DNA of 64,000 nt, from positions 76,818,001-76,882,000 of the forward strand of contig OX597819.1 in NCBI GenBank assembly GCA_951406725.2, in the 5' to 3' direction. Each line of letters begins with the position of its first letter. Within the stretch, counting starts at the first letter, position 1. The notes beneath the pieces are model-generated. The model saw nothing but the letters and a program-made list of their open reading frames with translations, ran no database searches and had not been told where the DNA came from. Below, piece after piece: positions 11,150 through 46,053 of the stretch. Made by a program: the position numbers and the translations under genes. The DNA comes from Octopus vulgaris. Its lineage: Eukaryota.

Positions 11150-11420
11150 TGTGATCTCTTGAGCACCACCAGCTCAAATATTTTTTCCTCTGTCTTCCCT
11201 TCTTGGGATCTTTCCTTCTTGTTTCCGACGAAGAGCTCCGCTCGAAACGTTAAACCCTCCTTCCCTTCTTTCCTGAGCGTCAATAATACTTTAATTGTTC
11301 CACGTCCTGCGTTGCTGTGTTTTTTTTCTCCTTTTTTTTCCTCCTTTTTTCTCCTTTGTTTTTTCTCCTTTTTTCCTCCTTTTTTTCTCCTTTTTTCTGT
11401 GTTTTCTTGTTTGGATTAAC
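11150..11420 (+). mobile_element. ~200-bp Penelope-type terminal (pLTR-like) unit, family A copy 1
   Basis: Near-identical to 38858-39064, 39418-39627 and 45865-46053; ends tgtttggattaac then (TA)n; contains hammerhead motif. Confidence 0.7.
11221..11255 (+). ncRNA. Minimal type I hammerhead ribozyme motif (U4C core variant)
   Basis: gttt-CCGACGA-a-gagc-tcc-gctc-GAAA-cgtt-aaac: stem I GTTT/AAAC, stem II GAGC/GCTC, palindromic AACGTT stem III. Confidence 0.7.
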
Positions 11421-11447
11421 TATATATATATATATATATATATATAT

Positions 11448-12848
11448 ATAGCTGACGTACCCGGTAATTCCTGAAAGCGCAGCTTATCCCTTGGTTCCGT
11501 TCTCGTAATTGTTTCGCTAATCCAATAACAACAATATAAAGTATGTAGCTTTGAAAACGGTTTTTTTGCATTTACAGAGAATACAGTAACGTCTTGCATA
11601 GCATGTTGTTTTTAGGAAATCACAATAAGTTATGAACACACAAATTGTGAAGTCAGTTACGTAATAACATAAAATTAGTTACCCGATAGTAAGAATTCAA
11701 ATAAAGTAGCCCCGAAAAGGGCTTTAATGCGTTCCCAGAGTATATAGAACTTAGGAGGAAATACCAATAGGATATGTATACCAAAATCGTGAAGCATGTT
11801 ATCTAATAACAGGCTAATCAGATATGAGATAATAACAATTCAAAATAGGTAACACTGAAAAGGGCTTTTGTGCGTTCCAAAGGAATATTACCCTCAGTGG
11901 TGCTAGTGTTAAAATAGATTTACAATGAATGTAGAAACAGATTGACATTTTGTTTTACAGTACACAAACAAATAAATTTGCATATAGATTTTAAAGTGAC
12001 ATAGATAATCAGTACATTTACAACACTTACGAAAACATCACCACAGCTATCAATATGAATTAAGAAAATGTTCTTACATGTAAACAGCGTGTTAACTGTA
12101 TGAATACAGTGCAGATTGCAATGTTATTGATAGATAAACGGCGATTTCTGTCTGCTTGTGTGGTTGGTTGTTACATAGAGTACATCATTACAAATATTAA
12201 CACATCTATCTATATAAATTAAGAAGGTGTTCCTACATGTAAACAGGGTATGACATTTGTGATAACAGTGCATTTGTCTAAAAGCAGAACAGTTCTTCAT
12301 GCAGCACTTGTCAATAGGCTGAAGTTACATGAAAGGCGTCATTCGTGGTATATTCGTGAATAAGTCACTAACTGAAATAAGTAGATCTATTGTTTAGGAA
12401 AATACTATTTACTTGTTTAAGGGTTGTACTGGGTAAATTGCGAAAATAACTCTTACAGTTCAAATACTAAGAAATAAACATACCTTGATTTATACCAAAT
12501 AAAATCACTGACCTTGTCTGACAATTTCTTGTAGGAAAGTCCAGATAATGTAGAATGCTAGTTTAATAAATCAAGAAGTATATTTTTTATACATTTTTTC
12601 ATTTGATATATATATATAAGAAAATGAATGGGTTATTTCCTTTGTCTGGTAATGATTATATACGTGGGTCCCTTCTAGGGGCCCTGGCCATCCAGTTATA
12701 GATTTTTATTAAACTTCAATGAGCCTAGTAACAAACTGGATGCTACTTTAGCATGTCTGCAAAGTGTCACGAAAATTCGTTAACAGGGGTAGACGGCAAC
12801 TTAACACAAACAGACAAACAGACAACTTGTTTTTATATATGTATAAGA
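11448..12848 (-). mobile_element. Non-autonomous Helitron-like element, degenerate
   Basis: Minus strand begins TC(ttatacatatataaaa...gtctgtttgtctg) and ends near a degenerate ccggg hairpin plus CTAT; internal duplications at ~11695/11838 and ~12060/12218. Confidence 0.5.
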
Positions 12849-12956
12849 TATCGCGACTGTCCGCTTATCTCTAGATAATAAGTCCCCTCCTTTTCCTTAA
12901 TCGTATGATCACTGTGGAGCATTCGTGATTTTTTAGATTACATCCCCTTCTTATAT

Positions 12957-13350
12957 GGAGCTGTGGGCATGGCTGTGTGGTAAGAAGCTTGCTTCCCAGC
13001 CGCATGGTTCCAGGTACAGTCCCACTGCGTGGCACCTTCGGCAAGTGTCTTCTACTATAGCCTCGGGCCGACCAAAGCTTGTGAATAGATTTGGTAGACG
13101 GAAGCTAAAGGAAGCCCATCGTACATATATGTTTGTGAGTCTGTGTTTGTCCTCCTACCATCGTTTGACAACCGATGTTGGTGAGTTTACGTCCCCCCGT
13201 AACTTAGGGGTTTGGCAAAAGAGATCGGTAGAATAAGTACTAGGCCTACAAAGAATAAGTCCAAAGATCGATTTGTTCGACTAAAGGCGGTGCTCCAGCA
13301 TGGCCCCGGCATGGCCGCAGTCAAATGACTGAAGCAAATAAAAGAATAAA
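12957..13350 (+). mobile_element. tRNA-derived SINE with CORE-like segment (octopus OR-type)
   Basis: Box A tggctgtgtggtaag, box-B-like ggtacagtccc, GGCACCTT(C)GGCAAGTG core, tail gctccagcatggcc...aaatgactgaa...aaagaat; family name is from recall. Confidence 0.85.
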
Positions 13351-43050: not shown

Positions 43051-45089
43051 ATATATATATATATATATATATATAGATATATATATATATATATATATAT
43101 ATATATATGTATGTATGTATGTATATATACATACATACATACATACATACATACATACATACATACATACATGTATATATACATATATATATGCATGCGT
43201 GTGTATGTGTGTAACAATTTTCCTCTTTGTTGGACACAGGATCATAAAATAATTATGCCACATAGATAACAATTTTCATATATAGTGTTTAGTGCGCGAT
43301 TGCTTAATCAAATTGATATAATTAGTTTTGTACGTATTAAGTATTTCTTTCAGCGTCTTACTTGCTATTTAACTAGACTGTGTATCTTCACATATTCTAT
43401 GATTTGTATCAAATCTAATCTTTTAAGTGCAATGTTGGGAATTTACAACAATTTTATTCTCATAGATCGACTTGTCTTCTCAATGGGCTGCACTAATTAG
43501 CTCAATGGGCTGCAACTAATTTATAAAAAGTATGTTTTTGCACAGGTTGTAAAACCAAATGAGGACTACGTATATTGGGGTATATATATATATATATATA
43601 TATATATATATATATATATATATATATATATATATATATATAGGCTAAAATATGATCTTTTCATACGTTAGTTTTTATAGAGCGGAATATGAACTCACTA
43701 AGTTCTTTGCACTTGCATAAGTTTTCTAAGCTTTTTTTTCATTTTTGTGGTTATTCAATGTATAATAAATTCCACGACTGTATTTTAGACAAGCTCTATT
43801 CTTCTGCTGTCAAGCATCGCGTTCGCCTCAAAAATAGTTTTAGTATGTTATACAAATTCGTTTGCAAGTACGTTCTAAATATGAATTGTAAGTCGGGAAA
43901 TAGTAAGGAAAATATTTTTTAGATAATTACTATTATTGTATAAGCCTATCTACTAGACGATCATAATTTCGAAAAACAAAACTGGAATGAAATTGTTTCT
44001 CTTAATTTGTTTTTTGTTTTTTTTTTGTTTTTTTTTTTTTGGGGGGGGGGGGGGTAGTAAAATTTTGTTCGCATCTTGTATCATTAAAAGGCATACACAG
44101 CCAACTGTACAAAAATAGTTTTTAAATGTTCAATATTTTCATACCTATTTATATATATTAAACAATATCAGAAATTGTTTTTAGATATTGTTTAAGAAAA
44201 TCAGAAAAATTCGTATTTGATGTTCATTTAGAGAAAAAAAATCCAGCTTAGAGAGATTTTTAATGAAAATATACAGAAAGATTTTTGCATCAGATTAAGC
44301 TATTTTAGTGAACAAATCGTTTTTGGAGAACAAAGGCATACAGATAAGAATTTTCTCATGAAAATCATATTGAATTTAATGGTGCAAAGTAAAAAAAAAA
44401 TGTTTTCGAAATTATTTGCGTTCAATAACATGTGAAATGGTACTTGCAAGGAATCTCAGGAAATTTTTTTAATGACTTTTTTTTATGGCCTCTGCATTTA
44501 GTTCCATTTTATAGGTCAACTGTAAAATGTAAAAAGAAATTTAGCTTGGGAGTTTTCTTTTGTAACCATTTCTCATGTGTGTGTGTGAGTGTATGTGTGT
44601 GTGTGTGTGTACGTGTGTGTGTAGGAGAAGAGATAAAAGAAAGGAAGAGACAAATAAAGAGAGAGAAAACGAGAGACAGAACTAGTTATACAAACGAAAG
44701 AAAAGAGTAGTCAACAAATCTGAGCACGTTTCGTGAAGTTCATATTTGTTTAGTGAAGTTTATATTTATTTACATTCTATTAACCAAAACAGCAATACTC
44801 CAAGTTCCACGGAAAAGACAAAGACACTCTTGCACCAACAATCGTATGAACGATCAGCAGTGACGTTCTCATGTTTGTCAAAAATTCAGTAATTAGATTC
44901 TGAGTCAAATTGATAAAATAATGAGCATGAATGGGGGAGGGCCTGTCTCTGTGCGCGCATGCCTGCCTGTGTGTGTATACATGTACATATGTATACACAT
45001 AAATATATGCATTTGTATACGCATGTACGCATAAATATACATATATATTTAAACATATATGCCTATATACATAAATATATATATATATA

Positions 45090-45245
45090 TAGGGAGAGTT
45101 TACGAAAAAAAACAAAAACGAAGACAGGTGGTGTACAAAACAAACAGATGTATTAGTATAACGCTCAGGAATCGAAAAAGTATTTTACGTTTCGAGCCTA
45201 CGCTCTTCTACAGAAAGGGACACAGAAAAAACAAGGAGAGAACGT
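45090..45245 (-). mobile_element. Family-A-related terminal unit with hammerhead-like motif (45183-45216)
   Basis: Minus: ttt-CTGTAGA-a-gagc-gtag-gctc-GAAA-cgta-aaa, then ttcctgagcgt as in family A; core has A6U. Confidence 0.65.
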
Positions 45246-45864
45246 GTATATACGCATAAGTATACGTGCGTGCGTGTGTATGTGTGTGTATGTGATCTGT
45301 GTGTGTATGTAAATATATACAAATATGCATGTATAACTGATAAAACCATACGAATAGATTATATTGCATTGCTACACTGAATCATTAAGAGAGTTTATTG
45401 TGACGATACATCGTATATGCAGTTGTTTAAGATATGTGACATCTATAAGATAATGCAATAATCTCTCAAATCTTCAGACCAAACCATATGCAGATCAATC
45501 GATTCGCTGTCAGATTTGCGAATCACACAATATACATGTATATATTAAAATTTCTTTTAAAAGAATTCTTGGTCGAGTTTCAAATTTTGAACATGTTTAA
45601 ATTAAAAATTACTAGTTATATATTTTTTTAATCAGCTCTAGGTCCATATGGAGAGCAGCCCAGAACCCTAAACTTAGTCGACACTGCGATAACACTCAGG
45701 ATTCCTGACCTCTTGCGTTGTGAAAAGAGGCAGGTGATATAGTACAGCTCACTCGTCTCCTCTTGCGTAAAAACTAACGTCTCAAGAGAATCTTTAACCC
45801 GCAACATAGGTTCTATAGCATTTTAAGTGTGTACGAGTGTGTATGCGTGTCTAAATATATATAT

Positions 45865-46053
45865 GTTGGCGATTTTTTTCCTCTGTCTTCCCTTCTCTGG
45901 ATCTTTCCTTCTCCTATGTTTCCGACGAAGAGCTCCGGTCGAAACGTTAAACCCTCTTTCTTTCCTTCTTTCCTGAGCGTCCAATAATACTATATTTGTT
46001 CCACGTCCTCGCGTTCTTGTGTTTTTTTTTGTGCTTTCATGTTTGGATTAACT
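45865..46053 (+). mobile_element. Family-A hammerhead unit copy 4 (motif 45918-45952)
   Basis: gtttccgacgaagagctccggtcgaaacgttaaac; one stem II mismatch; followed by (TA)n. Confidence 0.75.

What the first reader, a model, noticed from the sequence alone, without database searches (positions are those of the whole stretch)
11150..46053. Dispersed ~200-bp non-coding unit built around a minimal hammerhead ribozyme, always followed by (TA)n
Seen: four near-identical copies (11150, 38858, 39418, 45865) and two relatives (39240 +, 45090 -). Each carries C(U/C)GACGA-A-GAGC-loop-GCUC-GAAACGUH or a variant with a palindromic stem III, and the four copies end at the same base (..tggattaac) before (TA)n. 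No ORF is attached. The stem II loop changes (tcc vs gtag) while GAGC/GCUC is kept. Known: minimal type I hammerheads with palindromic stem III occur in Penelope pLTRs and metazoan retrozymes and can cleave as dimers. Inference: a very high-copy, (TA)n-targeted, ribozyme-bearing non-autonomous retroelement, or severely 5'-truncated Penelope insertions.
Basis: partly seen in the sequence, partly recalled or inferred. Interest (0 to 1): 0.75.

Follow-up and report, generated by a model that had tools for sequence, protein, structure and literature searches.

The report
Penelope retroelement ends with hammerhead ribozyme
These ~215-base repeats are the ribozyme-bearing end repeats of a known kind of jumping gene that lands in TA repeats, and their strikingly fixed length suggests that most are likely aborted first steps of its copying cycle.

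Summary
The repeat is real. It is not an independent element but the end repeat (pLTR) of a Neptune-type Penelope-like element (PLE). Elsewhere in this genome the same unit flanks a reverse transcriptase + GIY-YIG ORF on both sides (L064, L238), and the 11150 copy really starts at ~10931 as a truncated long copy. The minimal type I hammerhead fold is backed by compensatory changes between families. Only 1 of the 6 window copies keeps a canonical core and both stems; cleavage is untested. There are 9,620 exact core matches, roughly 30,000-60,000 copies. PLE hammerheads and (TA)n targeting are published, and the scan noted this kind before on other DNA of this genome (e1-8669779). What I did not find described: truncation is not random. 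Of 61 copies, 39 start within one 23-nt window and only 4 extend past it. Of 57 tandem junctions, 28 are one-off chimeras joining the 5' UTR straight to a fresh short unit. I infer that reverse transcription starts in the RNA's 5' leader, runs off its 5' end (short units) and sometimes jumps (chimeras, possibly full copies). New member of a known kind, with a testable lead on how pLTRs are regenerated.

The parts
10931..11420 (+). A-type copy: 5'-truncated 3' end of the PLE (part of the 3' UTR plus pLTR), between two (TA)n tracts, with a private pyrimidine expansion at 11320-11398
   Evidence: 191 of 194 nt identical to the upstream pLTR of full-length-type copy L064
11221..11255 (+). Minimal type I hammerhead (U4C variant); predicted cut after 11251
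11421..11450 (.). (TA)n target tract
38860..39063 (+). B-type short unit (solo pLTR) starting 78 nt upstream of the core, inside the 5' pile-up window; hammerhead 38928-38962 with A6G
   Evidence: 187 of 203 nt identical to the pLTR of ORF-bearing L238
39240..39417 (+). Older related family (D), degenerate hammerhead; its 3' end abuts the 39418 copy
   Evidence: (40 relatives listed at 73-84% identity); no ORF link tested
39418..39625 (+). B-type short unit; the only window copy with a canonical core and both stems (hammerhead 39489-39523, predicted cut after 39519); followed by (TA)n 39626-39693
45092..45243 (-). C-type relative: truncated 3' end of a second PLE family (A6U core, GUAG loop), followed by (TA)n
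   Evidence: (same kind of unit ends GIY-YIG ORF copies L071, L073)
45865..46052 (+). B-type short unit starting 62 nt upstream of the core; stem II broken; keeps the element's own TTTATATA before (TA)n

Best explanation
The units are the hammerhead-bearing end repeats (pLTRs) of a Neptune-type Penelope-like retroelement family inserted at (TA)n, and most are likely run-off reverse transcripts of the 5' leader of the element's RNA rather than random truncations. Shown: the unit flanks an RT + GIY-YIG ORF; in tandem junctions it continues through TTTATATA into the 5' UTR; short copies stop at a fixed 5' site about 90 nt upstream of the hammerhead core. Inferred: (1) the RNA starts at that site inside the upstream pLTR; (2) the endonuclease nicks (TA)n and the nick primes at the TTTATATA junction, ~220 nt into the RNA; (3) RT runs off the RNA's 5' end, leaving a ~205-225-nt unit; (4) sometimes it jumps and goes on, into the 5' UTR (chimeras) or further; (5) the lone hammerheads are passengers, probably silent as monomers. 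I put identity as a PLE pLTR at ~0.95 and the run-off mechanism at ~0.55.
For: L064 reads (TA)n, pLTR, junction, 5' UTR, broken ORF with RT and GIY-YIG domains and a CX4CxxC linker, 2.5-kb CA-rich 3' UTR, pLTR, (TA)n. It has 1,035 homologues carrying RVT_1, PF26215 and in part GIY-YIG. B-type pLTRs flank RT-EN ORFs in L238 and L254; 3 of 37 junction loci fetched had RT-EN matches. 5' ends: 39 of 61 copies start 70-92 nt upstream of the core, 4 beyond 95; constant-hazard truncation is rejected (P about 4e-32). Genome-wide, 2,870 matches to a motif starting at about -88 against 517 to one starting at about -97 (the patterns differ in strictness). Upstream pLTRs at junctions pass the site more often (10 of 21 against 3 of 43, Fisher p = 3.6e-4), so it is not simply a block in the sequence. 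26 of 57 junction loci by script (28 by eye) join the 5' UTR, 25-763 nt past the junction and at different breakpoints, straight to a new unit that starts at most 131 nt upstream of the core; 13 of the 26 start at 65-105. Published parts: PLE RT starts inside the RNA at the pLTR-ORF junction, product length follows the RNA's 5' end, and hammerhead cleavage is not needed in vitro (PMC11167929); Penelope transcription starts inside the upstream pLTR (PMC2377424).
Against: No transcript 5' end was seen, so the start site is inferred from DNA alone. The motif at the site is TCATTC in some subfamilies but TCTTTC in others, so an initiator match (consensus recalled) is weak. 8 of the 16 long junction copies have upstream pLTRs far longer than the site allows, which needs longer templates or further jumps. 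No mosaic between subfamilies was found among 42 long copies. 9 of 26 chimeras rejoin well inside the unit, often at pyrimidine-rich stretches shared by both sides, as genomic deletions would (PMC3846280 reports such deletions). The junction comparison is open to selection for processive enzymes. The 61 copies all come from the first 17.6 Mb of one contig and include one duplicated pair (L212, L213). No intact ORF was found among the loci read.
Confidence: 0.6

Rival explanations
1. Self-amplifying non-autonomous unit: solo pLTRs are transcribed from their own internal promoter and copied in trans by the PLE enzyme, like a SINE.
For: Fixed 5' end. Short units outnumber junctions about 170 to 1 (9,620 against 57). 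Non-autonomous PLE derivatives are known (MRC1, PMC8557442).
Against: Each subfamily type looked at also occurs at ORF junctions. The chimeras need templates that carried the 5' UTR. In vitro the anole enzyme needs RNA downstream of the pLTR (PMC11167929), which solo units lack.
Confidence: 0.17
2. Ordinary 5' truncation of full-length templates, with an RT stall or microhomology capture (ATGTG/GTGTGTA against (TA)n or (TG)n targets) at one site; the chimeras are later genomic deletions.
For: The pile-up window contains target-like letters, and 54 of 61 copies have a microsatellite at the 5' junction. Microhomology deletions are reported for PLEs (PMC3846280).
Against: Junction-linked pLTRs pass the site far more often. 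Random deletions across a ~5-kb body would not all rejoin within 131 nt of the core. Longer CA/TA-like tracts further upstream show no pile-up.
Confidence: 0.15
3. Retrozyme: a small circular RNA cut out by the hammerheads and copied round and round.
For: Type I hammerhead. Short head-to-tail dimers and one trimer (L244) exist. Animal retrozymes derive from PLEs (bioRxiv 10.64898/2026.07.22.740005).
Against: The dimers have one-off breakpoints, not a fixed monomer. The hammerhead lies mid-unit, and 5' ends do not pile up at the cut site (1 of 30 bystanders, 1 of 26 chimeras). None of the 61 sampled copies had a junction.
Confidence: 0.04
4. Solo repeats left by recombination between the two pLTRs of full-length copies, as with solo LTRs.
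For: Solo pLTRs were ascribed to recombination or deletion in a rotifer (PMC3846280).
Against: Solos would inherit the broad length spread of upstream pLTRs, and they do not. It would need hundreds of solos per surviving junction.
Confidence: 0.04

Closest known systems
Neptune-clade Penelope-like elements (Craig et al. 2021, PMC8557442; passages read)
   Same: [quoted passage not shown]
   Different: Very long CA/TACA-rich 3' UTR (1.9-2.5 kb), tail of ~115-140 nt instead of 30-40, and a dominant fixed-length short unit; Neptune versus Nematis not resolved here
Minimal hammerheads of metazoan PLEs (Cervera and de la Pena 2014, PMC4209133; parts 1-2 of 4 read)
   Same: 4-5 bp helix I, extra base between 9 and 10.1, G10.1-C11.1, palindromic 15.2-16.2, mostly single dispersed copies (thousands per genome) ascribed to truncated PLEs
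   Different: Helix II is only 4 bp; the commonest core here is U4C (102 of 215); that paper does not, in the parts read, describe a fixed 5' end
Poseidon_Ac of the green anole (Frangieh et al. 2024, PMC11167929; parts 1-2 of 4 read)
   Same: Two internal RT start points at the pLTR-ORF junction, matching the two 3' ends seen here (junction and tail); AT-rich targets
   Different: Other clade; priming there was without homology, whereas here the start lies on a TA-like octamer matching the target; genomic run-off products were not described in the parts read
Animal non-LTR retrozymes (bioRxiv 10.64898/2026.07.22.740005; parts 1-2 of 5 read)
   Same: Non-coding, type I hammerhead, PLE-derived, monomers dispersed
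   Different: Defined by tandem arrays of one fixed unit; not seen for this family in the loci read

Membership tests
Penelope-like element (EN+) | RT plus C-terminal GIY-YIG endonuclease linked to the unit | tested here: met
   L064, L065, L238, L254, L258; homologues carry RVT_1 and GIY-YIG; P0001 alone scores RVT_1 only at E 0.0016, below the cut-off
Penelope-like element (EN+) | pLTR formed by a partial tandem (same unit at both ends) | tested here: met
   L064, L238, L254, L258; 57 exact junctions
Penelope-like element (EN+) | Optional 3' tail and inverted pLTR | tested here: met
   13 of 57 junction loci end 50-140 nt past the junction, 7 of these with an inverted unit
Neptune clade | CX2-5CxxC linker before the endonuclease | tested here: met
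   CX4CxxC in P0001; shared with Nematis (PMC8557442)
Neptune clade | RT phylogeny with named reference elements | not tested
   no named PLE references were available among the hits
Minimal type I hammerhead | Conserved core in type I order | tested here: met
   C3, G5, G8, A9, GAAA and U16.1 invariant in 19 selected sequences; positions 4 and 6 vary
Minimal type I hammerhead | Helices I and II with compensatory changes | tested here: met
   87% of cells paired, 8 of 10 pairs change on both sides, slid controls 20-44%; the changes come from three or four families, so few independent events; rows were picked by the core motif
Minimal type I hammerhead | Self-cleavage (as dimer) | not testable with these tools
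   monomer minimum-energy folds show the full hammerhead stems in at most 1 of 6 window copies
Non-LTR retrozyme | Tandem array of a fixed unit, each with a hammerhead | tested here: not met
   0 of 61 sampled copies with a junction; dimers have unique breakpoints
Non-LTR retrozyme | Abundant small circular RNA | not testable with these tools
   only assembled contigs were available

The most novel reading that the evidence does not exclude
The PLE pseudo-LTR works like a true LTR. RT primes at the junction in the RNA's 5' leader and makes a ~220-nt strong-stop cDNA. It then transfers to the matching repeat at the RNA's 3' end, whose border could be set by the hammerhead cut (~112 nt of shared sequence), and so regenerates both pLTRs. 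The tens of thousands of short units would be failed transfers and the chimeras misdirected ones: a genomic record of a retrovirus-like strand transfer in a target-primed element.
Probability: 0.25. Interest if true: 0.75.

Novelty: new member of a known kind. Interest (0 to 1): 0.4.

Why it matters
As an element it is ordinary: hammerhead-bearing PLE ends scattered by the thousand are published, and so is (TA)n targeting. The value lies in the length pattern. How PLEs regenerate their pLTR was called unexplained in PMC2377424, and the role of their hammerhead is still open (PMC8557442, PMC11167929). A family with tens of thousands of copies, a sharp 5' stop and dozens of jump-like chimeras gives exact coordinates for a direct test: map the RNA's 5' end and run the RT on defined templates. 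It also warns that such units would easily be annotated as SINEs.

Tried and rejected
Rfam scan: no hammerhead among the 150 of 244 hits listed, which were almost all microRNA models on microsatellites and inverted repeats. The repeat finder was swamped by microsatellites. A strict B-type junction pattern gave 0 matches; a looser one gave 88. RNA: no RNA holder listed on record. Contigs of four runs guessed to be RNA cover the pLTR far more deeply than the ORF, but contigs cannot show starts, strand or level, so I draw nothing from this. A pile-up of 5' ends at the hammerhead cut site was looked for and not found. Subfamily mosaics among 42 long copies: none; this is neutral for jumps within one RNA. 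A loose core-motif scan of random DNA gave 12 hits against 2-7 in shuffles, so it is weak alone. In the C family several 5' ends fall at 73-98 nt upstream of the core, but the sample mixes subfamilies on one reference, so it is only a weak hint. Target-site duplications cannot be read inside (TA)n. The paper on dimer-cleaving small hammerheads (PMC5785218) is not held; I know it only through a review's passage. Sequence look-up in earlier findings: nothing. Literature searches for a described run-off or strand-transfer model returned none in the listings and passages read; subscription papers, Repbase/Dfam entries and supplements were not seen, so the family may already be catalogued. An octopus repeat annotation (PMC13282606, passages) lists 31 recently active PLE families, and 'ribozyme' does not occur in its main text.
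Full report
Observation. They are 84-91% identical to the 39418 copy. Only that copy has a canonical core and both stems; the others carry U4C, A6G, A6U or a broken stem II. The 39240 relative is followed by the 39418 copy, not by (TA)n. The genome is 2.8 Gb. Its repeat landscape looks octopus-like to me (recalled), and earlier scan notes say the same; I did not test this.

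Copy number and target. The 22-nt core has 9,620 exact matches against 0 for the control. Forty evenly chosen 10-kb stretches held 9 A/B-type hits, fragments included, and 6 C-type hits. That gives about 63,000 A/B copies (95% interval 29,000-120,000). Scaling the exact count by the 3 of 9 hits that had an exact core gives about 29,000. (TA)n follows the end in 53 of 61 core-selected copies and in 28 of 30 bystander copies, against 7.9% background (10 of 40 bystander ends were dropped for low alignment score).

What it belongs to. The 11150 copy starts at about 10931, and its upstream sequence is shared by many loci for more than 1.5 kb. Of 15 such loci extended to 10 kb, L064 shows the whole element: (TA)n, a truncated unit, the junction GGATTAAC|TTTATATA, a 5' UTR, a broken ORF whose 626-aa part holds RT and GIY-YIG domains with a CX4CxxC linker, a 2.5-kb CA/TACA-rich 3' UTR, the unit again, and (TA)n. 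The protein has 1,035 homologues at E <= 0.001, the best at 43-58% identity, with RVT_1, PF26215 and in part GIY-YIG domains. The B-type units of 38858, 39418 and 45865 also occur at junctions and flank RT-EN ORFs in L238 and L254. Each window copy is 92-98% identical to some junction-linked pLTR. The 45090 relative matches the 3' end of a second GIY-YIG family (L071, L073). The 39240 relative belongs to an older family whose ORF link I did not test. This is the architecture of C-terminal-endonuclease PLEs with a linker zinc finger, Neptune or Nematis (PMC8557442, passages).

The ribozyme. Across three to four families the fold is a minimal type I hammerhead: helix I of 4-5 bp, helix II of 4 bp, and the palindrome ACGU for helix III. 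In 19 picked sequences 87% of cells pair and 8 of 10 pairs change on both sides, against 20-44% pairing for slid controls. The events are few and the rows were chosen by core motif. This matches the PLE minimal hammerheads of PMC4209133 (parts 1-2 of 4), which did not cleave as monomers and were already noted as mostly single, dispersed and probably from truncated PLEs. Cleavage is untested here.

The non-random length. I took the first 61 listed core matches, all on one contig arm. Of these, 39 start 70-92 nt upstream of the core, 13 below 60, and only 4 beyond 95. Constant-rate truncation is rejected. Genome-wide motif counts fall from 2,870 to 517 across the same site. Bystander copies show the same peak (10 of 30 at 81-91). 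The longest of the peak copies begin at a TCATTC/TCTTTC motif. Among all 57 exact junctions, 16 continue into the element body. Another 13 end in a tail 50-140 nt past the junction, 7 of them with an inverted unit. The remaining 28 are short chimeras in which the 5' UTR is joined, at different points, straight to a new unit. Upstream pLTRs at junctions pass the site in 10 of 21 cases against 3 of 43 for solos (p = 3.6e-4).

Mechanism. Published work shows that a PLE enzyme starts reverse transcription inside the RNA at the pLTR-ORF junction, that product length follows the RNA's 5' end, and that hammerhead cleavage is dispensable in vitro (PMC11167929, parts 1-2 of 4). It also shows that Penelope transcription starts within the upstream pLTR (PMC2377424, passages). 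Together these predict a short run-off product of fixed length, which is what dominates here. I therefore infer the following order: nick at (TA)n, priming on the TA-like junction, run-off at the RNA start, occasional jumps. The two 3' ends (junction and tail) fit two RT start points. Against this: no RNA end was seen; the start motif is not constant; 8 of 16 long copies have upstream pLTRs much longer than the site; no subfamily mosaics were found among 42 long copies; and some chimeras look like microhomology deletions, which PMC3846280 (passages and Discussion) reports, along with template jumps. I give the identity 0.95 and the mechanism about 0.55. The rivals are a self-amplifying solo unit (0.17), a stall or capture site (0.15), a retrozyme (0.04) and recombination solos (0.04).

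Novelty. The kind is known, and this scan noted it on another piece of the same genome (e1-8669779). I did not find the fixed 5' stop, the chimera class or a strong-stop reading in five searches of the held library. Subscription papers, supplements and repeat databases were not seen. The boldest reading, a retrovirus-like strand transfer that regenerates the pLTR with the hammerhead cut bounding the shared repeat, is not excluded (0.25). Verdict: new member of a known kind, interest 0.4.

Noticed in passing
window 29228-30753 (-): A 5'-truncated PLE of another family between two (TA)n tracts: GIY-YIG ORF (Pfam PF01541, E 2e-8) with a CX4CxxC linker; its 3' part holds 93- and 112-nt tandem repeats with TGACGT and ATTGG motifs and no standard hammerhead by my motif scan; relatives of its 3' end in L045, L114, L223.
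   Followed up: partly
window 63401-63748 (+): A second GIY-YIG-like remnant (YIG motif) with no Pfam hit.
   Followed up: partly
window 13971-14144 (+): A 57-aa coiled-coil-like open frame that looks like a host exon; no Pfam hit.
   Followed up: partly
window 16469-16999: 2.6 tandem copies of a 177-nt dispersed repeat with inverted relatives at 20158, 31619-31972, 35179 and 47866; probably a common SINE-like family.
   Followed up: no
window 37619-37946, 48623-49196, 61266-61724: Long near-perfect inverted repeats (160-210 nt arms), two of them centred on microsatellite or near the N gap; possible MITEs or assembly artefacts.
   Followed up: no
window 50580-50951 (-) and 40593-41372 (+): Open frames that resemble a LINE (RTE-like) C-terminal remnant and a DNA-transposon remnant; names recalled, not tested.
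   Followed up: no
L081:2226-2280, L093:2361-2412, L009, L095: Another hammerhead family with a longer helix II, preceded by (TAA)n or (CAA)n runs.
   Followed up: partly
L061:2-770 (-), L063:3592-4177 (-): RT fragments of another PLE type, possibly Naiad-like (name recalled), beside A-type copies.
   Followed up: no
L064, L238 3' UTR: The element carries 1.9-2.5 kb of degenerate CA/TACA repeats in its own 3' UTR, so it may spread microsatellite-like DNA through the genome.
   Followed up: partly
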